IMG/VR virus record: IMGVR_UViG_2585427741_000003
Length of the DNA stretch: 20,949 nucleotides
Origin: a virus
Lineage: Duplodnaviria > Heunggongvirae > Uroviricota > Caudoviricetes
Strand: one strand, 5' to 3'
Under the pieces are notes generated by a model, which was not told the origin of the DNA, ran no database searches, and saw only the letters and a list, made by a program, of their open reading frames with translations. Positions 344-20,949 of this stretch are shown one piece after another; position 1 is the first letter of the stretch; the number at the start of each line of letters is the position of its first letter. Made by a program: the position numbers and the translations under genes.

Positions 344-1201
344 ATGAGCACCATCCTGAAATGGGCAGGTAATAAAACTGCCATTATGTCCGAACTGAAA
401 AAACATCTTCCTGCTGGCCCGCGACTGGTTGAACCTTTCGCGGGTTCCTGTGCTGTGATGATGGAGACGGATTACCCCAGCTATCTTGTTGCGGATATTA
501 ATCCTGATTTAATCAACCTCTATAAAAAGGTTGCTGCTGATTGTGAATCGTTTATATCTCGCGCCAGAGTTTTTTTTGAGATCGCAAACAGGGAGGTGGC
601 TTATTACAACATAAGGCAGGAGTTTAATTACTCAACTGAAATTACTGATTTCATGAAAGCGGTATATTTCCTGTATCTAAATCGTCACGGTTACCGTGGT
701 TTATGTCGCTATAACAAGAGCGGGCATTTCAACATTCCCTACGGTAATTATAAAAATCCGTATTTCCCTGAAAAAGAAATTCGCGCATTTGCAGAAAAAG
801 CCCAGCGGGCAACGTTTATCTGCGCCAGCTTTGATGAAACGCTGGCGATGTTGAAAGCGGGGGATGTGGTGTATTGCGATCCGCCGTATGACGGTACGTT
901 TTCCGGCTATCACACTGACGGCTTCACTGAAGATGACCAGTATCACCTGGCATCTGTTCTTGAACATCGATCATCAGAAGGTCATCCGGTCATTGTTTCT
1001 AACAGTGACACATCCCTGATCCGTTCGCTGTATCGCAATTTCACTCACCACTACATCAAGGCAAAACGCAGCATCGGCGTGTCAGCTGGCGAGAGTAAAT
1101 CTGCAACAGAAATCATTGCTGTTTCCGGGCCGCGCTGCTGGATGGGATTTGATCCTTCGCGTGGCGTGGATAGTTCTGCTGTGTACGAGGTGCGTGTATG
1201 A
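344..1201 (+). CDS. DNA N6-adenine methyltransferase, Dam (D12 class) family
   Basis: 285 aa; N-terminal SAM-binding KWAGNK...EPFAGS signature and catalytic DPPY motif (CDPPYDGTF). RBS CAGGAGG lies 6-12 nt upstream of the ATG. Stop overlaps the start of the next gene (ATGA at 1198-1201). Confidence 0.9.
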
Positions 1202-3765: not shown

Positions 3766-3954
3766 ATGCAGGACTATTTTTTGGAGTCTTTGAAGCTCCA
3801 GCGCATTGATTTTTTTCTTAAGCTTGTAGCGGCTAGTGAGTGTAGTGATGAAGAGAAGGGGCTGGCTCTGCAGTGGGTTTCTGAATTGACTGATGAACTC
3901 ATGGCAAAAATCAGAACCCACGAATACAACCGCTCAATGGATGTCATCAGCTGA
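3766..3954 (+). CDS. Hypothetical small protein (62 aa), first gene of the SOS-box unit; possible Tum-like antirepressor (speculative)
   Basis: ATG at 3766 is preceded by a strong RBS AGGAGG (3756-3761). The longer version in the ORF track (start 3664) would read through the LexA box. No family recognised from sequence alone. Confidence 0.45.
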   Translation: MQDYFLESLKLQRIDFFLKLVAASECSDEEKGLALQWVSELTDELMAKIRTHEYNRSMDVIS

Positions 3955-3964
3955 GGTGACTTTT

Positions 3965-4198
3965 ATGCGCATTGAAATAATGATCGATAAAGAGCAGAAG
4001 ATTAGCCAGTCTACCCTGGACGCCCTTGAATCCGAGCTTTACCGCAATCTGCGCCCCCTGTATCCCAAAACGGTAATTCGCATTCGCAAAGGTAGCTCTA
4101 ACGGTGTGGAACTAACCGGACTGCAACTGGACGAAGAAAGAAAACAAGTGATGAAAATTATGCAGAAGGTGTGGGAAGACGACAGCTGGCTGCATTAA
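3965..4198 (+). CDS. DinI-family protein (DNA-damage-inducible protein I-like)
   Basis: 77 aa, MRIEIMIDKEQKISQSTLDALESELYRNL...KQVMKIMQKVWEDDSWLH. The MRIE start, the central LDAL..EL block and the C-terminal acidic W-containing tail match the recalled DinI/MsgA pattern. RBS GAGGTGA lies upstream. Confidence 0.7.
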   Translation: MRIEIMIDKEQKISQSTLDALESELYRNLRPLYPKTVIRIRKGSSNGVELTGLQLDEERKQVMKIMQKVWEDDSWLH

Positions 4199-4333
4199 GA
4201 AACGTTGCTGGCGTCTGAACTTGCTTCTGGCGTCAGCAAGGTTGAACAACGAGCCCTTGCGAGGCGTTAGCTCTGTAGTGCATGTCTATGCCGCATGAGA
4301 TCGCATGATCGTTTGAGGATCGTTTTTGCTAAG

Positions 4334-4357
4334 GCCCGCCAGAACTGGCGGGCTTTT
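4334..4357 (+). terminator. Rho-independent terminator candidate
   Basis: GC-rich inverted repeat GCCCGCCAG / CTGGCGGGC followed by TTTT, downstream of the DinI-like gene. Confidence 0.6.
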
Positions 4358-4402
4358 GCGTAGATCATGCAGGTGCATGAAAACCACTACATAAAGCGGG
4401 CA

Positions 4403-4421
4403 GGCGTGGCGGGGATACGAG
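4403..4421. other. Putative cos (cohesive-end) site of the P2/186 type
   Basis: GGCGTGGCGGGGATACGAG: the first 13 nt match the recalled 186 cohesive end (GGCGTGGCGGGGA...) and resemble P2 cos (GGCGAGGCGGGGA...). Position fits the conserved order: replication region, cos, portal. Confidence 0.4.
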
Positions 4422-4434
4422 CGCGCGCAGCGGG

Positions 4435-4463
4435 TGGAAACTCAGATTTGAATGTTGTATAAA
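4435..4463 (+). promoter_or_regulatory. Candidate sigma70 promoter for the retron operon
   Basis: TGGAAA (4435-4440), 17-bp spacer, TATAAA (4458-4463), about 30 bp upstream of the effector ATG. Sequence match only. Confidence 0.35.
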
Positions 4464-4492
4464 AGATGGGATCATTCTGAGGAAAAGTGGAT

Positions 4493-5398
4493 ATGAAAAA
4501 GAAAACTATTCCGGAGTTGCAGAAGCAAAATCTGGCAAATTTAATTAAAAGTCGGCTTTTTCAACAGAAAAATAAAAATAAAGTTACTGTTTTCCTTTGC
4601 GGGGGCGATTTGAATGATCCGTTTTTTTGTAGAAATAAAGTTAAAAGAGTGTTGGAAACACATCCCAAAATAGAAATATTCTATCCTGAGGAGTTGTTTG
4701 ATGAGCTTTTGTATGGACAAGGTCAGCATAGTCTTTTAAGTTTGGAGAATATTTTAGCTGATTCAGTCGATGTTATTATTATTATTCCTGAAAGCCCAGG
4801 GTCTTTCGCTGAATTGGGCGCATTTTCAAATAATGAAAAACTGTGCAAAAAAATGATATGTCTTCAGGATGACAAATTCAAACTTAAAAAAAGCTTTCTT
4901 AATTATGGGCCTATAAAACTGCTTCGGCGTGCTAATAGCGGTGCAGTATTGCGAGGAGATTTGTCGACTCTTGAAAGCTTGAGTACAGGTAAAGCTTTTT
5001 ATAATAGAATTATAAAAAGTATTAATGACATCAAAAAAAATAACCCAGTTAATCACTCAATAGATAATATTCTTCACGCTCGGCGTTTTATACTGCCATG
5101 TATATATTTGATGGATGGTATAGATAATATACTTCTATATGAGCTATTACATTTGGTGACTAAGAAAGATGCTATTCTTTGTGAAATTATCGTTAAGTCT
5201 GTTATTTCAAGCTTGATTAAAGAGTCAATAATTAGGCGTTCAGTTCAAGGATACCATATTACAGAAATTGGTATGCAATACGTTCTTGAGCATTTTGATC
5301 GAAAGGCTTTGGACAATCTACGACTGGATATGATGAACTTCGAAAATCGTGGTAAAACAATACTCCACTATGATAGGATGCGTTTTGCGCACCCTTAG
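4493..5398 (+). CDS. Retron effector candidate: nucleoside 2-deoxyribosyltransferase-like (NDT-like) N-terminal domain plus C-terminal helical, possibly DNA-binding, domain
   Basis: 301 aa from ATG 4493 (RBS GAGGAAA upstream; the ORF track begins two codons earlier at GTG 4487). Rossmann-like start KVTVFLCGG and DVIIIIPESPGSFAELGAF block with a candidate catalytic Glu in SFAELG. Low-GC codon usage unlike the flanking phage genes. Stop codon TAG (5396-5398) lies inside retron repeat a1. Confidence 0.65.
   Translation: MKKKTIPELQKQNLANLIKSRLFQQKNKNKVTVFLCGGDLNDPFFCRNKVKRVLETHPKIEIFYPEELFDELLYGQGQHSLLSLENILADSVDVIIIIPESPGSFAELGAFSNNEKLCKKMICLQDDKFKLKKSFLNYGPIKLLRRANSGAVLRGDLSTLESLSTGKAFYNRIIKSINDIKKNNPVNHSIDNILHARRFILPCIYLMDGIDNILLYELLHLVTKKDAILCEIIVKSVISSLIKESIIRRSVQGYHITEIGMQYVLEHFDRKALDNLRLDMMNFENRGKTILHYDRMRFAHP
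5387..5397 (+). repeat. Retron inverted repeat a1
   Basis: GCGCACCCTTA; exact reverse complement of 5535-5545. Confidence 0.8.
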
Positions 5399-5534
5399 CG
5401 AGTGGCTTCTCCGGAAGTTCACTGGACAGTGTTTCGCTGTCCTACATACAATCTGAAGTTTTACCAGTTCCCTCATTGAAAGGAGAACATCTCCCGATGT
5501 TCTCCTTTCACTTCGGAATCTGATTTTTATGACG

Positions 5535-5545
5535 TAAGGGTGCGC
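5535..5545 (+). repeat. Retron inverted repeat a2
   Basis: TAAGGGTGCGC; exact reverse complement of 5387-5397; ends 2 nt before the RT start codon. Confidence 0.8.
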
Positions 5546-5547
5546 TC

Positions 5548-6522
5548 ATGACTTCCGCAACACCATCTCAGGTTTTTCGCTTACGCAATCTTGGATTGCC
5601 TGTTATGTCCTCTTTAGAGGATATGTCTAGAGAAATGCGTTTATCAGTAGACATACTCCGGTTGTACATTTATCGTGCTGACAAATACTATAAGGTTTAT
5701 TCGTTGCCAAAAAGAGATGGCAAGAGATCCCGCATCATTTCACAGCCATCACGTGAGCTGAAGGCATTGCAAGCTTGGGTGTTAAGAAACATCCTTGATA
5801 AGTTACATTCATCCCCATTTTCCAAAGGCTTTGAAAAAGGGCAATCAATATTAAATAATGCCAGCCCACATGTAGGAGCTAACTATGTATTAAATATTGA
5901 TTTAGAAGATTGTTTTAATACTATTCTGATAGAGAAAATCTATACTGTTTTTCATTCTCTGGGGTATAACTCTACTATTTCTAATGCTTTAGCAAGATTG
6001 TGTTCATTTAATGGTTCGCTACCTCAAGGTGCACCATCTTCTCCAAAGATTGCGAATCTTGTTTTAACTAAATTAGATTATAGAATACATGGATATGCAG
6101 GTAGTAAGGGGATCGTATTTACTCGATATGCCGATGATTTGACTTTATCTGCTCAATCTTTAAAAAAAATACTTAAAGCTAAGTCATTTGTATGCTCTAT
6201 AATACCAAGTGAATCTTTGAAGGTTAATTATAATAAAGTTGCGATTCATGGCCCCAAAGCAAGGAAGGAGGTTACTGGGCTCGTTTTATCTATTGATAAT
6301 GTTGGAGTTGGCAGAATACGTTATCGCGAAATTAGAAGTAAGATCCATTATCTGGCGGTAAAAAGAAATTCTGATTTCGAACATGTTAAAGGACTTATTG
6401 CGTTTGTTAAAAGTGTAGACAAGAAAAACTATAGAAAATTGATGACTTTCTCAAATAAAATGTCTGAAGCATATGGGGTTGATCTAAGTGTTCTTTTTCC
6501 TAAAAACAAAAAGGCCATTTAA
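5548..6522 (+). CDS. ret: Retron-type reverse transcriptase
   Basis: 324 aa; RT motifs: PKRDGKRSRIISQP (motif 1/2), NASPH (retron NAxxH), LPQGAPSSPKIANL (motif 4), RYADDL (catalytic YADD), and the retron-specific VTG (EVTGLVL). Size is typical of Ec86/Ec73-class RTs. Low-GC composition. Confidence 0.92.
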   Translation: MTSATPSQVFRLRNLGLPVMSSLEDMSREMRLSVDILRLYIYRADKYYKVYSLPKRDGKRSRIISQPSRELKALQAWVLRNILDKLHSSPFSKGFEKGQSILNNASPHVGANYVLNIDLEDCFNTILIEKIYTVFHSLGYNSTISNALARLCSFNGSLPQGAPSSPKIANLVLTKLDYRIHGYAGSKGIVFTRYADDLTLSAQSLKKILKAKSFVCSIIPSESLKVNYNKVAIHGPKARKEVTGLVLSIDNVGVGRIRYREIRSKIHYLAVKRNSDFEHVKGLIAFVKSVDKKNYRKLMTFSNKMSEAYGVDLSVLFPKNKKAI

Positions 6523-15282: not shown

Positions 15283-15286
15283 TCTT

Positions 15287-15304
15287 TGTATCAGCACTGA
15301 TACA
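15287..15304 (+). promoter_or_regulatory. Late promoter activator site (TGT-N12-ACA) upstream of V
   Basis: TGTATCAGCACTGATACA, part of the near-perfect palindrome TTGTATCAGCACTGATACAA in the S-V intergenic region. Confidence 0.6.
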
Positions 15305-15350
15305 AGTTGCAGCACTGCCGCCTTTCTTCCCCTGATGGCAACCTTTCCCT

Positions 15351-15925
15351 ATGAACGCACAATTAACCGAAATCATGCGCCTTATCACCAACCTGATCCG
15401 CACAGGGGTAGTCACCGAAGTGGACAGGGAAAACTGGCTGTGCCGGGTGAAAACGGGCGAGCTTGAAACCAACTGGATCAGCTGGCTGACACTGCGCGCG
15501 GGAATCGCGCACCTGGTGGAAACCGTCTGTGGGTGAGCAGGTGGTGCTGCTGAGTCTGGGCGGCAATCTGGAAACCGCCTTTGCCCTGCCCGCGGTCTAC
15601 TCAAACCAGTTCCACCACCGTCGACTCGGAAGACGCCAACGTGACAGAACACCCGGACGGCGGCTGGTTTGAATACGAACCCACTACCGGGCGCTGGTAT
15701 GTCAGGGGCATCAAATCAATGGTCATTGAGGCCGCTGACAATATCACCCTGAAAACCAGTGAGTTTGTGCTGGAGGCTGACCGCACGCGTATTAACAGCG
15801 AAGTGGTGATCAATGGTGGCGTTACCCAGGGCGGCGGAGCGATGAGCTCTAACGGGATTGTGGTTGATGCGCATCAGCATACTGGCGTCCTGAAAGGCGG
15901 CGATACAACCGGAGGCCCGGTATGA
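15351..15925 (+). pseudogene. V: Baseplate spike protein gene (P2 gpV-like) interrupted by two frameshifts
   Basis: gpV-like translation runs through three frames: frame a 15351-15503 (MNAQLTEIMRLITNLIRTGVV...WLTLRAG), frame b about 15505-15609 (SRTWWKPSVGEQVVLLSLGGNLETAFALPAVYSNQ), frame c about 15614-15925 (TVDSEDANVTEHPDGGWFEYEP...SSNGIVVDAHQHTG). Frame a stops at 15534-15536. Confidence 0.75.
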
Positions 15926-17176: not shown

Positions 17177-17774
17177 TCTGCTGCCACCGGGTTCAACTTC
17201 ACTGGAGCGCCGACTGGCGCAAACCTGTAGCGGGATTTCTGATCTGCAGGTGCCGCTGCGTGACTTGTGGAATCCGGCGACTTGTCCGGTCAGTTTCCTG
17301 CCTTATCTCGCCTGGGCGTTCTCTGTGGATCGCTGGGACGAGAGCTGGACAGAAAGCGTCAAACGCCAGGTGGTGAAGGATGCTTTTTATATTCATCAGC
17401 ACAAAGGAACCACCAGTGCCGTGCGGCGGGTGGTGGAGCCGTTCGGCTTCCTGATCCGCATTATTGAGTGGTGGCAGACCGGAGAAACACCGGGCACGTT
17501 TCGCCTGGATATCGGCGTGCAGGATCAGGGCATCACTGAAGATACCTATCTGGAACTTGAGCGGCTGATAAGCGATGCCAAACCATGTAGCCGTCACATG
17601 ATCGGCATGTCCATCAATCTGCAGACCAGCGGTCCGCATTGGGTGGGGGCCGCCAGCTATCTTGGCGAAGAAATCACGATCTATCCGTATATCAACGAAA
17701 CAATTATTTCCGGCGGCACCGCGCATGAAGGCGGGGCGGTCCATGTTATTGACACAATGAGAGTGAATCCATGA
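17169..17774 (+). CDS. I: Baseplate / tail-fibre attachment protein, P2 gpI-like
   Basis: 201 aa; LWNP.TCP, LAWAFSVDRWDE, HKGT and GTFRLDIGV blocks match recalled P2 gpI. Confidence 0.9.
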   Translation: MNSLLPPGSTSLERRLAQTCSGISDLQVPLRDLWNPATCPVSFLPYLAWAFSVDRWDESWTESVKRQVVKDAFYIHQHKGTTSAVRRVVEPFGFLIRIIEWWQTGETPGTFRLDIGVQDQGITEDTYLELERLISDAKPCSRHMIGMSINLQTSGPHWVGAASYLGEEITIYPYINETIISGGTAHEGGAVHVIDTMRVNP

Positions 17775-19168
17775 GCACAAAATTTTATACCCTGCTGACG
17801 GATATTGGCGCGGCGAAACTTGCCAGCGCCGCCGCGCTCGGTGTGCCTTTAAAAATTACCCATATGGCGGTAGGCGATGGCGGCGGAACATTGCCAACGC
17901 CGGACGCAAAGCAGACAGCATTAGTAAATGAGAAACGCCGGGCTGCGCTGAATATGCTGTACATCGACCCGCAGAACAGCAGCCAGATTATTGCCGAACA
18001 GGTGATCCCTGAAAACGAGGGCGGTTGGTGGATACGTGAAGTGGGCTTGTTTGATGAGTCCGGGGCATTGATTGCCGTGGGCAACTGCCCGGAAAGCTAT
18101 AAGCCGCAACTGGCTGAAGGTAGCGGGCGCACTCAGACCGTGCGCATGGTGCTGATTACCAGCAGCACGGACAATATCACCCTGAAAATCGACCCTGCCG
18201 TCGTGCTGGCAACCCGCAAGTATGTGGATGACAAGGTACTGGAGCTGAAGGTGTTCGTGGATGATAAGATGGCAAAACATCTTGCCGCACCGGACCCGCA
18301 TTCACAGTATGCACCCAAAGAAAGCCCGACATTGACCGGAACACCCAAAGCGCCAACGCCAGCGGAGGGGAATAACACCACGCAGATTGCGACCACCGCG
18401 TTTGTTCAGGCGGCACTGATGGCCCTTATTAATGGTGCGCCAGCCACACTGGATACGCTGAAAGAAATTGCCGCTGCCATTAATAATGACCCGAAATTCA
18501 GTACCACCATTAACAATGCGCTGGCACTGAAAGCGCCGCTGTTAAGTCCGGCACTCACCGGAACGCCAACAGCCCCCACTGCCGCACAGTCGGTTAACAA
18601 TACACAGATTGCCACCACGGCTTTTGTGAAATCGGCAATTGCGGCAATGGTGGGGTCTGCACCTGCTGCACTGGATACACTGAACGAACTGGCTGCGGCG
18701 CTGGGGAATGACCCGAACTTTGCCACGACAATGCTTAATGCGCTGGCAGGTAAACAACCGCTGGACAATACGCTGACTAATTTGAGTGGAAAGGATGTAG
18801 CTGGTCTTCTCGCATACCTTGGTTTGGGAGAATTATCTCTGGCTGGCACTGCATCGGGTGTCATTGGCCTGAATGGGTATGTAACGATCCCGTTAATTAT
18901 TTCAGGTTCCCGGAGAACACTGATTATTCAGTGGGGGCAGGCGAGATTTGGTGGGTCTGGTGGTGAAGATGCCGGATATCTTAACGATTTTCCTTTTGCC
19001 TTTCCGTCAGCATGTTATGGAATGATAGTTAGTCATGTGGGGCATACACCTTCAGGCGCAGGAATCTTGTCGGCTTCTGCAATTACATCAAATCAGTTCC
19101 GCGGTTTTTCAAGCATAGCGACTGCTGCAAACGCTGTATTAGGTCGTTATATCGCTATAGGGGTGTAA
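17771..19168 (+). CDS. H: Tail fibre protein, P2 gpH-like; C-terminal about 116 codons (18820-19168) lie inside the invertible segment
   Basis: 465 aa; N-terminal 160 aa match recalled P2 gpH (MAVGDGGG, AESYKPALAEGSGR-like blocks). Central tandem fibre repeats (ALTGTPTAPT...NNTQIATTAFV...LDTLNELAAALGNDPNFATT) are shared with P2 H. The C-terminus downstream of the crossover site is unrelated to P2 H. Confidence 0.9.
   Translation: MSTKFYTLLTDIGAAKLASAAALGVPLKITHMAVGDGGGTLPTPDAKQTALVNEKRRAALNMLYIDPQNSSQIIAEQVIPENEGGWWIREVGLFDESGALIAVGNCPESYKPQLAEGSGRTQTVRMVLITSSTDNITLKIDPAVVLATRKYVDDKVLELKVFVDDKMAKHLAAPDPHSQYAPKESPTLTGTPKAPTPAEGNNTTQIATTAFVQAALMALINGAPATLDTLKEIAAAINNDPKFSTTINNALALKAPLLSPALTGTPTAPTAAQSVNNTQIATTAFVKSAIAAMVGSAPAALDTLNELAAALGNDPNFATTMLNALAGKQPLDNTLTNLSGKDVAGLLAYLGLGELSLAGTASGVIGLNGYVTIPLIISGSRRTLIIQWGQARFGGSGGEDAGYLNDFPFAFPSACYGMIVSHVGHTPSGAGILSASAITSNQFRGFSSIATAANAVLGRYIAIGV
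18322..18762 (+). repeat. Two tandem ~220-bp (about 74-codon) imperfect repeats inside the tail-fibre gene
   Basis: Protein-level repeat: TLTGTPKAPTPAEGNNTTQIATTAFVQAALMALINGAPATLDTLKEIAAAINNDPKFSTTINNALALKAP versus ALTGTPTAPTAAQSVNNTQIATTAFVKSAIAAMVGSAPAALDTLNELAAALGNDPNFATTMLNALAGKQP. Confidence 0.8.
18807..18832. promoter_or_regulatory. Left crossover site of the invertible segment (gix/hix/pix-like, 26 bp)
   Basis: TTCTCGCATACCTTGGTTTGGGAGAA: 26 bp with imperfect dyad symmetry around a central TT. The inner 14 bp TTGGTTTGGGAGAA are exactly repeated in inverted orientation at 20679-20692. Confidence 0.7.
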
Positions 19169-19169
19169 T

Positions 19170-19607
19170 ATGTTTTATAGTCCATCTTTAAACATTTTTG
19201 TGAATCCTGCACTTAAGGATGATTACATTAATGCAAATTCATGGCCAGATGATGCTCTGGCTGTCAGTGATGATGTTTATAATGAATTTGCAATCAATAC
19301 GCCTCCAGATGACAAAATTCGTGTTGCAGGAAAAAATGGATTACCCACATGGGCACTAATACCTCCACCATCACATGAAGAACTTATTCAACAGCCAGAA
19401 TCAGAAAGGCAATTATTGCTTAATCAGGCCAACGAATACATGAACAGTAAGCAATGGCCCGGTAAAGCCGCTATTGGTCGTCTGAAAGGTGATGAACTGG
19501 CGCAATATAATTTGTGGCTGGATTATCTGGACGCACTGGAGCTGATCGATACTTCCGGTGCGCCAGATATTGAATGGCCTACGCCTCCGGCAGTTCAGGC
19601 CAGATGA
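19170..19607 (+). CDS. Tail fibre assembly protein (Tfa/gpG-like), paired with the currently expressed fibre C-terminus
   Basis: 145 aa; starts 1 nt after the H stop; conserved C-terminal Tfa signature (LW.DY.DA.E.ID...APDIEWP). Confidence 0.8.
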   Translation: MFYSPSLNIFVNPALKDDYINANSWPDDALAVSDDVYNEFAINTPPDDKIRVAGKNGLPTWALIPPPSHEELIQQPESERQLLLNQANEYMNSKQWPGKAAIGRLKGDELAQYNLWLDYLDALELIDTSGAPDIEWPTPPAVQAR

Positions 19608-20181
19608 CATCCGGCGCTGTGCTGGTATCTGTTGCCGTCACCGCGTCAATGTAATCCAGCACAGCGTTAAGGCGGGTTGTTTCTGCCTGCGTCAGCTTCC
19701 GTCCGGCCTGTAATTTCAGTTGAATCAGACTGATGGAGGCCATTGCAGTATCAATCAGCGACTGGCGCTGTGCTTCTGCTGCATCTACTGCTGCGCCGTG
19801 CTGTGCCTCGGTATCTGTCACCCATTTCTCACCATTCCATTCATCGTATGGCGTTAACGGGGCGATAGTGGTTGTATTTTCAGGATAATCACCCGGAGCT
19901 GTGATTTCTTTCGATTCTCCTGTTTCGGTGCTATAGACGATTTCACCGCGATGATCTGGCACATATTCCCATGAATTTAAATCTACAGAGCGACAGATTG
20001 CATAACCAGCTTTATGTGTACCTGGTGCATCCAAACAAGAACATGCCGGAATACCGACGCCGACAGCGAGATATTCAGTTGATGTAGAAATATATTCACG
20101 CGTTTCACCATCATAGTTATAAACAGTAATATTTCCTGCCTGGGTGGCGATAAATTCGTTATTTAATACGGCGTAATCCAT
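19579..20181 (-). CDS. Alternative tail fibre assembly protein (Tfa-like), inverted orientation
   Basis: 200 aa on the minus strand; C-terminal LDYIDAVTATDTSTAPDVIWPELP is the same Tfa signature; convergent with and overlapping the plus-strand tfa by 29 bp; start overlaps the stop of the alternative fibre segment (TAATGG). Confidence 0.8.
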   Translation of the reverse strand: MDYAVLNNEFIATQAGNITVYNYDGETREYISTSTEYLAVGVGIPACSCLDAPGTHKAGYAICRSVDLNSWEYVPDHRGEIVYSTETGESKEITAPGDYPENTTTIAPLTPYDEWNGEKWVTDTEAQHGAAVDAAEAQRQSLIDTAMASISLIQLKLQAGRKLTQAETTRLNAVLDYIDAVTATDTSTAPDVIWPELPEA

Positions 20182-20691
20182 TATGCAGCCCTCACGATAT
20201 ACGCAAATGCCAGGTTCCGTGGTCTGGTTTCTTTAATTAAAGAGGAGGCATCAGGTGAACTCACTGATTCAGCACCATTTCTTCCACCAGTGGTATAAGT
20301 AAAAACTCTTTCACTGTTAGACCAGTAATCCACACCAACTGTTTTTGCTGATGAAAAAATGGTTTCATCAGATATAACCTGTTCTATTCCATACGGGATA
20401 TTAGTAACTGACCCCACTTTTGTAGGTATTCCATGATTATGAGAAATTACTGCATGCTCTTGATTCGTTAATAAAGTACGACCGCTATCCACTCCACGCC
20501 CGTCATCCCAGCCACGAATAAACTCACCACGTAAATCAGGCAATTTATTTGTCGGATAAGCCTTTGCCAGTTCCGGGTATTCTTCAGCAGAAAAAGCGGC
20601 ACCGTTGCATTTCAGCCAGCCTGTTGGCGGAGTGGCGGAAGGCCACGGAACAGGCACGCCAACGGGTAATGCCGAACCTTCTCCCAAACCA
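20181..20691 (-). CDS. Alternative tail fibre C-terminal segment (promoterless, expressed only after inversion fuses it to the constant part of H)
   Basis: Minus-strand frame is open from the crossover site (..GLGE GSALPVGVPVPWPSATPPTGWLKCNGAAF...) to the stop at 20181. It shares the in-frame GLGE junction codons with H at 18819-18832. The ORF-track Met at 20732 lies outside the segment and is unlikely to be a real start. Confidence 0.7.
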
Positions 20692-20704
20692 ACGTTTATG
20701 AAAA
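20679..20704. promoter_or_regulatory. Right crossover site of the invertible segment
   Basis: TTCTCCCAAACCAACGTTTATGAAAA with central AA; its reverse complement TTTTCATAAACGTTGGTTTGGGAGAA shares the 14-bp inner half with the left site. Confidence 0.7.
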
Positions 20705-20759
20705 TGCAGAGATAACGGCTAACTGGCATCATCCCCGGTTTTTATTCAGGGGATTGATC

Positions 20760-20949
20760 ATGCTTATTGGCTATGTACGCGTGTCAACAAATGACCAGAA
20801 CACCGATTTGCAACGTAGTGCGCTGAACTGCGCGGGATGTGAGCGGATTTTTGAGGATAAAATCAGCGGCACTAAGTCCGACAGACCGGGGCTGAAAAAA
20901 CTGCTCAGGACACTATCGGCAGGAGACACGCTGGTTGTCTGGAAGCTGG
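20760..20949 (+). CDS. Serine DNA invertase (Gin/Pin/Cin/Hin family), N-terminal part; 3' end outside window
   Basis: MLIGYVRVSTNDQNTDLQRSALNCAGCERIFEDKISGTKSDRPGLKKLLRTLSAGDTLVVWKL: the canonical N-terminus of the small serine invertases, with the catalytic Ser in the YVRVST motif. Confidence 0.9.
   Translation, partial: MLIGYVRVSTNDQNTDLQRSALNCAGCERIFEDKISGTKSDRPGLKKLLRTLSAGDTLVVWKL

What the first reader, a model, noticed from the sequence alone, without database searches (positions are those of the whole stretch)
18807..20704. Gin/Pin-type invertible tail-fibre switch in a P2-like tail module
26-bp sites with dyad symmetry at 18807-18832 and 20679-20704 are in inverted orientation and share an identical 14-bp inner half (TTGGTTTGGGAGAA). 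The left site lies inside gene H in frame (..AYLGLGE..), and the right site lies in frame at the start of a minus-strand alternative C-terminal segment (..GLGEGSALPVGVPVPW..). Each fibre variant has its own tail-fibre-assembly gene, and a serine invertase gene starts at 20760. Inversion would swap the receptor-binding C-terminus of the fibre, which is a host-range switch like the Mu G, P1 C and e14 P segments. In the sequenced orientation the 116-residue C-terminus ending ..LGRYIAIGV is expressed.
Basis: partly seen in the sequence, partly recalled or inferred. Interest (0 to 1): 0.6.

Follow-up and report, generated by a model that had tools for sequence, protein, structure and literature searches.

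The report
Pin-type invertible tail-fibre switch, P2-like prophage
This is a genuine but well-known kind of DNA flip-switch: a small recombinase inverts a 1.9-kb segment so that a P2-like E. coli prophage makes one of two alternative tail-fibre tips. The same prophage sits in the opposite orientation in another sequenced strain.

Summary
Two 26-bp imperfect-dyad sites (18807-18832 and 20679-20704) lie in inverted orientation and share the 14 bp TTGGTTTGGGAGAA, including an identical asymmetric central TT.

- **Sites:** the right site is identical (26/26) to pixR of the E. coli e14 element. The left site matches pixL at 23/26.
- **Segment:** it carries a gp53-like fibre C-terminus plus its assembly gene on one strand. 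On the other strand it carries a collar-domain C-terminus plus a TfaE-like assembly gene.
- **Invertase:** a serine invertase gene starts at 20760, but the window ends after codon 63. In identical prophages it is 188 aa, 85% identical to PinE, 77% to Cin and 73% to Gin.
- **Decisive evidence:** E. coli YZLc4-1 carries the same prophage with exactly 18819-20692 inverted, with 1 mismatch in 2201 bp. This gives a 519-aa fibre instead of 465 aa. Both junction types recur in complete E. coli genomes.

The kind is already known. Examples are Mu G, P1 C, e14 P, the P2-like phage pro483, and inversions shown experimentally in P2-like prophages of EPEC. Interest is low.

In passing, I found a type II-A retron at 4487-6522 and a frameshifted baseplate gene V.

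The parts
17771..19168 (+). Tail-fibre gene H as expressed in the sequenced orientation (465 aa): constant part plus gp53-like C-terminus
   Evidence: ORF. Pfam Phage_tail_fib N-terminal domain 3e-65 and Gp53-like_C 3e-11. Annotated 'phage tail protein' in the identical prophage.
17771..18818 (+). Constant part of H (Sc, residues 1-349), outside the invertible segment
   Evidence: Identical in both orientation states over the compared stretch 18646-18818. Residues 181-340 are 81% identical to P1 S 253-412.
18807..18832 (+). Left crossover site (pixL-like): TTCTCGCATACC TT GGTTTGGGAGAA
   Evidence: Matches e14 pixL at 23/26. Weight-matrix score 30.0 against 9.7 for the next best 26-mer.
18819..20692 (.). 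Invertible segment (1874 bp from central dinucleotide to central dinucleotide)
   Evidence: Reverse-complementing exactly this stretch reproduces E. coli YZLc4-1 with 1 mismatch in 2201 bp, against 1351 mismatches unflipped.
18833..19168 (+). Variable C-terminus Sv, expressed in this orientation (gp53-like C domain)
   Evidence: Pfam PF21882. In YZLc4-1 the same piece lies silent beside the invertase, annotated gp53-like.
19170..19607 (+). Tail-fibre assembly gene for Sv (145 aa)
   Evidence: Caudo_TAP 4e-31. 49% identical to e14 TfaP.
19579..20181 (-). Alternative tail-fibre assembly gene tfa' (200 aa). It converges on tfa and overlaps it by 29 nt.
   Evidence: Caudo_TAP 3e-32. 90% identical to e14 TfaE. 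Overlap.
20181..20692 (-). Silent alternative C-terminus Sv' (170 codons including the split crossover codon; 169 whole codons translated, collar domain). It has no start of its own inside the segment.
   Evidence: Pfam Collar 1e-15. 58% identical to e14 StfE. Fused to Sc as a 519-aa protein in YZLc4-1.
20679..20704 (-). Right crossover site; read on the minus strand it is TTTTCATAAACG TT GGTTTGGGAGAA
   Evidence: 26/26 identical to e14 pixR.
20760..20949 (+). 5' part (63 codons) of the serine DNA invertase gene, cut by the end of the window
   Evidence: 100% identical to the first 63 aa of the 188-aa invertase of BS15R-A and YZLc4-1. Has Ser9, K46, K47 and R50. Pfam Resolvase + HTH_7 on the full-length protein.
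20778..20849 (.). Homologue of the recombinational (Fis) enhancer inside the invertase gene (inferred)
   Evidence: Occupies the position of the annotated P1 cin enhancer, nt 19-90 of the gene. 55/72 identical to it. G-N13-C cores at 20781-20795 and 20830-20844; the first is 96.5 bp from the centre of the right site.

Best explanation
This is a Pin-type (Din family: Gin/Cin/Pin/Hin) site-specific inversion switch in the tail-fibre region of a P2-like E. coli prophage. Most likely it works as follows. Dimers of the 188-aa serine invertase bind the two 26-bp pix-like sites. With host Fis bound to an enhancer inside the 5' end of the invertase gene, they form an invertasome on supercoiled DNA. 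The enzyme cuts both sites at the central TT/AA dinucleotide, rotates one pair of subunits by 180 degrees and religates. This inverts 18819-20692. The left site lies in frame inside gene H. Inversion therefore swaps the last 116 codons (gp53-like domain, followed by its own assembly gene) for 170 other codons (collar domain, followed by a TfaE-like assembly gene). The promoterless cassette stays silent next to the invertase. A lysogen population would then release particles with two receptor specificities. Shown here: the sites, the frames, the protein families, and the existence of both orientations in nature. Inferred from the family: Fis and enhancer dependence, the cleavage chemistry and the host-range effect.
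For: The sites exist and are far beyond chance. The right site equals e14 pixR at 26/26 and the left matches pixL at 23/26. The central dinucleotide TT is identical in both sites when they are read in inverted orientation. The same prophage in E. coli YZLc4-1 has exactly this segment inverted, with 1 mismatch in 2201 bp. The breakpoints can only be placed within the stretch where the two sites match (moving either breakpoint one base further out adds mismatches), and H there is annotated at 519 aa. Among 5426 complete E. coli genomes, 19 have the Sc-gp53-like junction, 49 have the gp53-like cassette silent beside the invertase, and 377 have the Sc-collar junction. The invertase has Resolvase + HTH_7 domains and Ser9. 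It is 85%, 77% and 73% identical to PinE, Cin and Gin. Its best solved relative is Gin (3uj3, E 6e-92). It carries K46/K47/R50 and Q150/R153/L154. These correspond to the Hin residues 47/48/51 and 151/154/155 that PMC3798978 describes as uniquely conserved in Fis/enhancer-dependent invertases. The enhancer position is conserved. Both fibre tips have their own Caudo_TAP gene. The gene layout is the same as in e14 and Mu. Inversion in P2-like prophages of EPEC was shown by sequencing and PCR in PMC4272514.
Against: The window ends at codon 63 of the invertase, so its integrity in this genome is not shown. Gene V, the baseplate spike, carries three deletions (-2, -1, -1 nt) relative to its relative, and these break the frame. 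No complete E. coli genome shares this allele. This copy may therefore be a defective prophage, or the assembly may hold errors. Conservation of the enhancer DNA cannot be separated from coding constraint on a highly conserved protein. No read-level or experimental evidence exists for switching in this strain. The two host ranges are not known.
Confidence: 0.9

Rival explanations
1. Frozen relic. The sites and cassettes are those of a Pin-type switch, but in this particular genome it no longer flips, or flipping has no consequence, because the prophage is decaying.
For: Gene V is frameshifted at three places in the window, and the allele is unique among complete E. coli genomes. The invertase is seen only up to codon 63.
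Against: All other late genes in the window are intact ORFs. The 63 visible invertase codons and both sites are identical to those of prophages with a full-length invertase. e14 is itself defective and still inverts (PMC4272514). Pin-family invertases can act in trans on another element's sites, as PinQ does on e14 (PMC12529663). The V indels could be assembly errors.
Confidence: 0.1
2. The two orientations seen in different strains arose by general (RecA) recombination or by horizontal replacement of cassettes, not by site-specific inversion.
For: Tail-fibre modules are notoriously mosaic. Here Sv'/tfa' are about 93% identical in DNA to the HK97/HK106 stf/tfa genes. H residues 181-340 resemble P1 S.
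Against: The inverted repeat offers at most 16 bp of uninterrupted matching sequence (the shared 14 bp plus two flanking complementary bases), far too little for efficient RecA recombination. The breakpoints fall exactly inside a site that is 26/26 identical to pixR. The flipped and unflipped prophages differ by 1 nt in 2201 bp and have identical invertases. This points to a recent, precise and reciprocal event.
Confidence: 0.02
3. The switch has been co-opted for the host. One orientation would produce a fibre-derived protein that masks a surface receptor and blocks superinfecting phages, as reported for the StfE2 chimera made by PinQ-driven inversion of e14.
For: PMC12529663 reports such an effect for the homologous e14 P segment. 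Sv' and Tfa' here are 58% and 90% identical to StfE and TfaE. The prophage may be defective.
Against: Here H is a full-length 465/519-aa fibre with the baseplate-attachment N-terminal domain, inside an otherwise complete late operon. The ordinary virion host-range role therefore explains everything. Nothing in the sequence tests receptor masking.
Confidence: 0.05

Closest known systems
P segment and PinE of the e14 element of E. coli K-12 (stfP-tfaP / tfaE-stfE, pinE)
   Same: The layout is identical: Sc+Sv, tfa, then convergent tfa' and Sv', then the invertase reading away from the segment. pixR matches 26/26 and pixL 23/26. The invertase is 85% identical and TfaE 90%. About 86-88% DNA identity over tfa'/part of tfa and over part of Sv' through pixR to the invertase.
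   Different: e14 is a lambdoid remnant whose fibre gene is a truncated 209-aa stfP. Here the switch sits in a full-length P2-type gene H. Sv is only 37% and Sv' 58% identical to the e14 tips.
G segment and Gin of phage Mu; C segment and Cin of phage P1
   Same: The mechanism class and gene logic are the same (S/U versus S'/U'). All have 26-bp sites of the same consensus, with comparable weight-matrix scores of 28-31. The enhancer lies inside the 5' end of the invertase gene. The invertases are 73% and 77% identical. The constant part of H shares an 81%-identical stretch with P1 S.
   Different: The central dinucleotide differs in Mu (TC/GA; P1 cix has TT/AA like this element), as do the variable tips and the U-type assembly proteins. 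Those segments are 3-4.2 kb against 1.9 kb here.
P2-like phages and prophages with an invertase between G and FI: Peduovirus pro483, the P2-like prophages of EPEC E2348/69, and (from my own knowledge, not tested here) Fels-2 with Fin
   Same: pro483 is annotated tail fibre, tfa, reverse tfa, reverse fibre fragment, DNA invertase, sheath, which is the same order as here. Inversion in P2-like prophages was detected by sequencing and confirmed by PCR in EPEC (PMC4272514). 19 phage records encode an invertase 95-99% identical to this one.
   Different: The combinations of fibre tips differ. One EPEC prophage has three sites and four variants. I did not align the EPEC loci to this window.
Phage P2 itself
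   Same: The late-gene order and the H/G tail-fibre logic are the same.
   Different: P2 has a single H-G pair followed by a terminator and the fun(Z) gene before FI. It has no invertase and no alternative cassette. The switch here occupies that same slot.

Membership tests
Fis/enhancer-dependent DNA invertases (Din family: Gin, Cin, Pin, Hin) | Small serine recombinase: N-terminal resolvase catalytic domain with the nucleophilic Ser (Ser9 in Gin numbering) and a C-terminal HTH | tested here: met
   Resolvase 3e-53 and HTH_7 1e-15 on the 188-aa protein of the identical prophage. Ser9 is present. Only residues 1-63 lie inside the window, and they are 100% identical to that protein.
Fis/enhancer-dependent DNA invertases (Din family: Gin, Cin, Pin, Hin) | Close sequence relationship to characterised members | tested here: met
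   85% identical to PinE, 77% to Cin and 73% to Gin. The best PDB match is Gin 3uj3, E 6e-92, against 4e-34 for gamma-delta resolvase.
Fis/enhancer-dependent DNA invertases (Din family: Gin, Cin, Pin, Hin) | Invertase-specific residues that contact Fis or the enhancer (Hin 47, 48, 51 basic; Hin Q151, R154, L155) | tested here: met
   K46, K47, R50 and Q150, R153, L154. The feature is taken from PMC3798978. The +1 numbering offset between Hin and Gin-type proteins comes from my own knowledge.
Fis/enhancer-dependent DNA invertases (Din family: Gin, Cin, Pin, Hin) | Two 26-bp imperfect-dyad recombination sites in inverted orientation with an identical, asymmetric central dinucleotide | tested here: met
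   The central TT is the same in both sites, and the sites are pixR 26/26 and pixL 23/26.
Fis/enhancer-dependent DNA invertases (Din family: Gin, Cin, Pin, Hin) | Recombinational enhancer with two Fis sites, in cis, about 100 bp from one site and inside the 5' end of the invertase gene | tested here: inconclusive
   The homologous stretch 20778-20849 is 55/72 identical to the annotated P1 enhancer. Two G-N13-C cores lie 49 bp apart, the first 96.5 bp from the site centre. Coding constraint alone could explain the conservation, and Fis binding was not tested.
Fis/enhancer-dependent DNA invertases (Din family: Gin, Cin, Pin, Hin) | Inversion actually occurs, dependent on Fis and supercoiling | not testable with these tools
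   Only indirect evidence exists: the same prophage occurs in both orientations in two strains, with breakpoints inside the sites, and both junctions recur across genomes.
Invertible tail-fibre host-range segments (Mu G, P1 C, e14 P) | A crossover site inside the fibre gene, in frame, separating a constant N-terminal part from alternative C-termini | tested here: met
   465-aa and 519-aa products result from the two orientations. The 519-aa form is annotated in YZLc4-1.
Invertible tail-fibre host-range segments (Mu G, P1 C, e14 P) | Each alternative C-terminus is followed by its own assembly or chaperone gene, with the two sets convergent | tested here: met
   Two Caudo_TAP genes at 19170-19607 (+) and 19579-20181 (-).
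Invertible tail-fibre host-range segments (Mu G, P1 C, e14 P) | The two orientations give different host ranges | not testable with these tools
   The two tips belong to different domain families, Gp53-like_C and Collar. This is compatible with different receptors but does not demonstrate it.
P2-like (Peduoviridae) tail module | Late-gene order Q P / O N M L X holin lysozyme ... R S V W J I H ... FI FII E T U D ogr | tested here: met
   Annotation of the prophage identical over 18300-20949. Window ORFs. GPA replication protein. 214 complete E. coli genomes cover at least 80% of the window.

The most novel reading that the evidence does not exclude
The least ordinary reading still open is that this copy is a defective prophage (broken gene V). 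On that reading the host, not the phage, would exploit the flip-switch. One orientation would make a fibre-derived surface or periplasmic protein that blocks adsorption of other phages, as claimed for the StfE2 chimera of e14 (PMC12529663). This would extend 'recombinase-activated phage inhibition' to P2-like prophages.
Probability: 0.04. Interest if true: 0.5.

Novelty: already known. Interest (0 to 1): 0.15.

Why it matters
It matters little beyond correct annotation. The locus should be annotated as one fibre gene with two alternative 3' ends. RefSeq instead annotates the silent piece as a stand-alone 'phage tail protein' with a start codon beyond the crossover site. Orientation differences between assemblies of such prophages should not be read as structural variation. 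The two tips, with their matched chaperones, are ready-made modules for host-range engineering of P2-type phages or tailocins.

Tried and rejected
1. I looked for a third crossover site, which would make a shufflon like the one in an EPEC P2-like prophage. The weight-matrix scan found none: the next best 26-mer scores 9.7 against 28-30 for the real sites.
2. Rfam at gathering thresholds found no RNA family anywhere in the window.
3. The consensus promoter scan found nothing convincing between the right site and the invertase start. One terminator-like hairpin at 20721-20740 lies in that spacer, and I do not interpret it.
4. I tried to find the window's exact source. No complete E. coli genome covers it fully; the best is 94% coverage at 95.9% identity. 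BS15R-A is 100% identical only over the switch region.
5. I tried to decide whether the gene V frameshifts are real. No complete genome shares the allele, so the question stays open.
6. I looked for the retron's msr/msd RNA upstream of 4487. Only short hairpins turned up and there is no clear a1/a2 pair.
7. The first two scripts failed because locus files are bundled under another file name. One Pfam call failed on a frame error. One paper look-up failed on a term that was too short.
8. I did not align hix sites, because no Salmonella reference was fetched. Any statement about hix rests on memory.
Full report
**Observation.**
- Left site, 18807-18832: TTCTCGCATACC TT GGTTTGGGAGAA.
- Right site, 20679-20704: TTCTCCCAAACC AA CGTTTATGAAAA. 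On the other strand this reads TTTTCATAAACG TT GGTTTGGGAGAA.
- The repeat finder ranks this pair first among inverted repeats in 17700-20949: 26 nt, 81% complementary, 1846 nt apart.
- The shared 14-mer occurs exactly twice in the 20.9-kb window, once on each strand. With up to 2 mismatches allowed, 0.13 matches are expected, and none of 100 shuffles reaches two.
- Both sites are imperfect dyads, self-complementary at 20/26 and 16/26 positions. They carry the same asymmetric central dinucleotide TT when read in inverted orientation.

**Anatomy.**
- Gene H (17771-19168, 465 aa) has the P2-type N-terminal fibre domain (PF12571, 3e-65) and a Gp53-like C-terminal domain.
- The left site lies in frame at residues 346-354 (..AYLGLGE). 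The central TT falls in codon 350, so 116 residues lie downstream of the crossover.
- A 145-aa Caudo_TAP assembly gene follows at 19170-19607.
- Converging on it, with a 29-nt overlap, is a 200-aa Caudo_TAP gene on the minus strand (19579-20181).
- Upstream of that gene on the minus strand is a 170-codon collar-domain segment (20181-20692). Its reading frame enters through the right site as ..GLGEGSALPVGVPVPW...
- The mechanical ORF (20181-20732) and the RefSeq annotation of the identical prophage both give this silent piece a start codon beyond the crossover site. I regard that as an annotation artefact. In e14 the equivalent stfE is marked as a pseudogene.
- A serine recombinase gene starts at 20760. 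The window ends after its 63rd codon.

**Related sequences and the decisive test.**
- The stretch 18300-20949 is 100% identical to part of a P2-like prophage in E. coli BS15R-A. That prophage has the same orientation, a 188-aa invertase, and then the sheath, tube, E, T, U, D and ogr genes.
- Strain YZLc4-1 encodes the same tail protein I, baseplate proteins, invertase and sheath, with the same protein accessions. It matches the window only between 18816 and 20692, at 99.9% identity, and in the opposite orientation relative to the flanks.
- Reverse-complementing window 18819-20692 reproduces the YZLc4-1 sequence over 2201 bp with a single mismatch. Left unflipped, there are 1351 mismatches.
- The breakpoints can only be placed within the stretch where the two sites match. 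Moving either one base further out adds mismatches.
- In that state H is a 519-aa collar-domain fibre, and the gp53-like piece lies silent beside the invertase.
- The invertases of the two strains are identical.
- This is what a recent conservative site-specific inversion at these sites would leave.
- Junction counts among 5426 complete E. coli genomes, at 80% coverage or more:
  - 19 carry the Sc-gp53-like junction.
  - 49 carry the gp53-like cassette silent next to the invertase.
  - 377 carry the Sc-collar junction.
- These counts depend on how diverged the constant part is, so they are not a clean orientation ratio. They do show that both states are common.

**Comparison of the sites.** I read gix, cix and pix from the Mu, P1 and K-12 reference records.
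- The right site is identical to e14 pixR at 26/26. The left site matches pixL at 23/26, with all three differences in the outer half that belongs to the fibre's constant part.
- A half-site weight matrix built from the six reference sites scores the window's sites 30.0 and 27.8. The reference sites score 27.8-31.7, the next best 26-mer in the window scores 9.7, and the best in 50 shuffles scores 17.0.
- There is therefore no third site and no shufflon.

**The invertase.**
- The full-length protein has Resolvase and HTH_7 domains.
- It is 85% identical to PinE, 77% to Cin and 73% to Gin.
- Its best solved relative is Gin (3uj3, E 6e-92), far ahead of the resolvases.
- It has Ser9, basic residues at 46, 47 and 50, and Q150/R153/L154. 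With the one-residue offset, these correspond to Hin positions that PMC3798978 describes as uniquely conserved in Fis/enhancer-dependent invertases.
- The P1 record annotates the cin enhancer at nt 19-90 of the gene. The homologous window stretch, 20778-20849, is 55/72 identical to it.
- That stretch holds two G-N13-C cores at 20781-20795 and 20830-20844. The first lies 96.5 bp from the centre of the right site. This is close to the roughly 100 bp quoted for Hin.
- The stretch encodes a highly conserved protein, so this does not independently prove an enhancer.

**Mechanism.** My conclusion is a Pin-type switch.
- Shown: the sites, their polarity, the frames, the two cassettes each with its own chaperone gene, the invertase family, and natural occurrence of both states.
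- Inferred from the family:
  - invertasome assembly with Fis on supercoiled DNA;
  - double-strand cleavage at the central dinucleotide with subunit rotation;
  - transcription of only the cassette joined to H from the late operon;
  - different receptor specificity of the two tips.
- The two inner halves are identical, so each site is regenerated unchanged after every inversion and the switch is freely reversible.

**What is known.**
- The layout is that of the e14 P segment (stfP-tfaP / tfaE-stfE / pinE). It follows the same logic as Mu G and P1 C.
- The cassettes are mosaic. Against e14, Tfa' is 90% identical to TfaE, Sv' 58% to StfE, Tfa 49% to TfaP, and Sv 37% to the StfP C-terminus.
- H residues 181-340 are 81% identical to P1 S.
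- The tfa'/Sv' DNA is about 93% identical to the stf/tfa genes of HK97 and HK106.
- P2 itself has no such switch. It carries a terminator and fun(Z) between G and FI.
- The classified P2-like phage pro483 has exactly this layout, with an annotated DNA invertase.
- 19 phage records encode an invertase 95-99% identical to this one.
- Inversion in P2-like prophages of EPEC E2348/69 was demonstrated by sequencing and PCR (PMC4272514).
- A systematic survey found tail fibre, tail-fibre assembly and 'phage tail protein I' annotations enriched at programmed inversions (PMC9881135).
- The finding is therefore correct but already known in kind.

**Caveats for this copy.**
- The invertase is cut by the window end.
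- Baseplate gene V (15351-15925) has three deletions of 2, 1 and 1 nt relative to BS15R-A. They break the frame into three pieces, and no complete E. coli genome shares this allele.
- This copy may be defective, or the assembly may contain errors.
- A defective element can still invert, as e14 does. Pin-family enzymes can also act in trans (PMC12529663).
- That paper's claim that an e14 inversion product blocks T2 adsorption leaves a small chance of a host-benefit role here.

**Other observations.**
- Between the replication gene A / DinI-like gene and the portal gene, the window carries a type II-A retron:
  - an NDT-like effector at 4487-5398 (PADLOC NDT_II-A, 3e-97);
  - a reverse transcriptase at 5548-6522 (RT_II-A, 5e-123; Pfam RVT_1).
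- Relatives hold other cargo at that spot. No Rfam RNA was found and no clear msr/msd was identified.
- A Dam-type methyltransferase gene lies at 344-1201.
- BS15R-A has an extra 867-nt minus-strand gene between S and V that the window lacks.

Noticed in passing
window 4487-6522 (+), with upstream intergenic 4199-4486: A type II-A retron sits in the P2 cargo hotspot between gene A/DinI and the portal gene. It has an NDT-like effector (303 aa, PADLOC NDT_II-A 3e-97) and a reverse transcriptase (324 aa, RT_II-A 5e-123, Pfam RVT_1 1e-24). Relatives carry DUF2971, DUF262, an ATP-binding protein or a group II intron there instead. No Rfam hit was found and no clear msr/msd was identified.
   Followed up: partly
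window 15351-15925 (+): Baseplate spike gene V is broken. Three deletions (2, 1 and 1 nt) relative to the BS15R-A gene split it across three frames. No complete E. coli genome has this allele. This is either a decaying prophage or assembly errors.
   Followed up: partly
window 18322-18415 and 18544-18637 (+): A 94-nt direct repeat (70% identity, 222-nt spacing, equal to 74 aa) lies in the constant part of H (..TGTP.AP...N.TQIATTAFV..). The stretch of H that holds it (residues 181-340) is 81% identical to P1 S residues 253-412. P1 annotates its own 222-bp repeated elements b1/b2 in S. I did not map b1/b2 onto that stretch, so homology of the repeats themselves is not shown.
   Followed up: partly
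window 19527-20700: The tfa'/Sv' module is about 93% identical in DNA to the side-tail-fibre stf/tfa genes of the lambdoid phages HK97 and HK106. It also matches many Klebsiella prophages at about 89%. This shows exchange of fibre tips across phage families.
   Followed up: no
window 20693-20732 (-); L001 13882-14430: The silent Sv' fragment is annotated in RefSeq as an independent 'phage tail protein', with an ATG that lies beyond the crossover site, in the spacer next to the invertase. This is probably an annotation artefact. The e14 equivalent, stfE, is marked as a pseudogene.
   Followed up: partly
L001 8086-8952 (-), corresponding to a point near window 15283-15350: BS15R-A and YZLc4-1 carry an extra 867-nt minus-strand hypothetical gene between S and V that the window lacks. 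This is a second variable cargo spot in the late operon.
   Followed up: no
window 344-1201 (+) and 3893-4198 (+): A D12-class N6-adenine (Dam-type) methyltransferase gene lies upstream of the replication gene A, and a DinI-like gene lies downstream of it.
   Followed up: no
NZ_CP032204.1 4023139-4027255 and NZ_OZ546943.1 386642-390755 (not fetched): In these two genomes the match to 18300-20695 is spread over about 4.1 kb in three pieces that include the recombinase gene. This suggests a differently arranged or larger invertible region.
   Followed up: no
window 20721-20740 (+): A terminator-like hairpin followed by a T-run (AACTGGCATCATCCCCGGTT TTTATTC) lies in the 55-nt spacer between the right site and the invertase start. 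No consensus promoter was found there.
   Followed up: no
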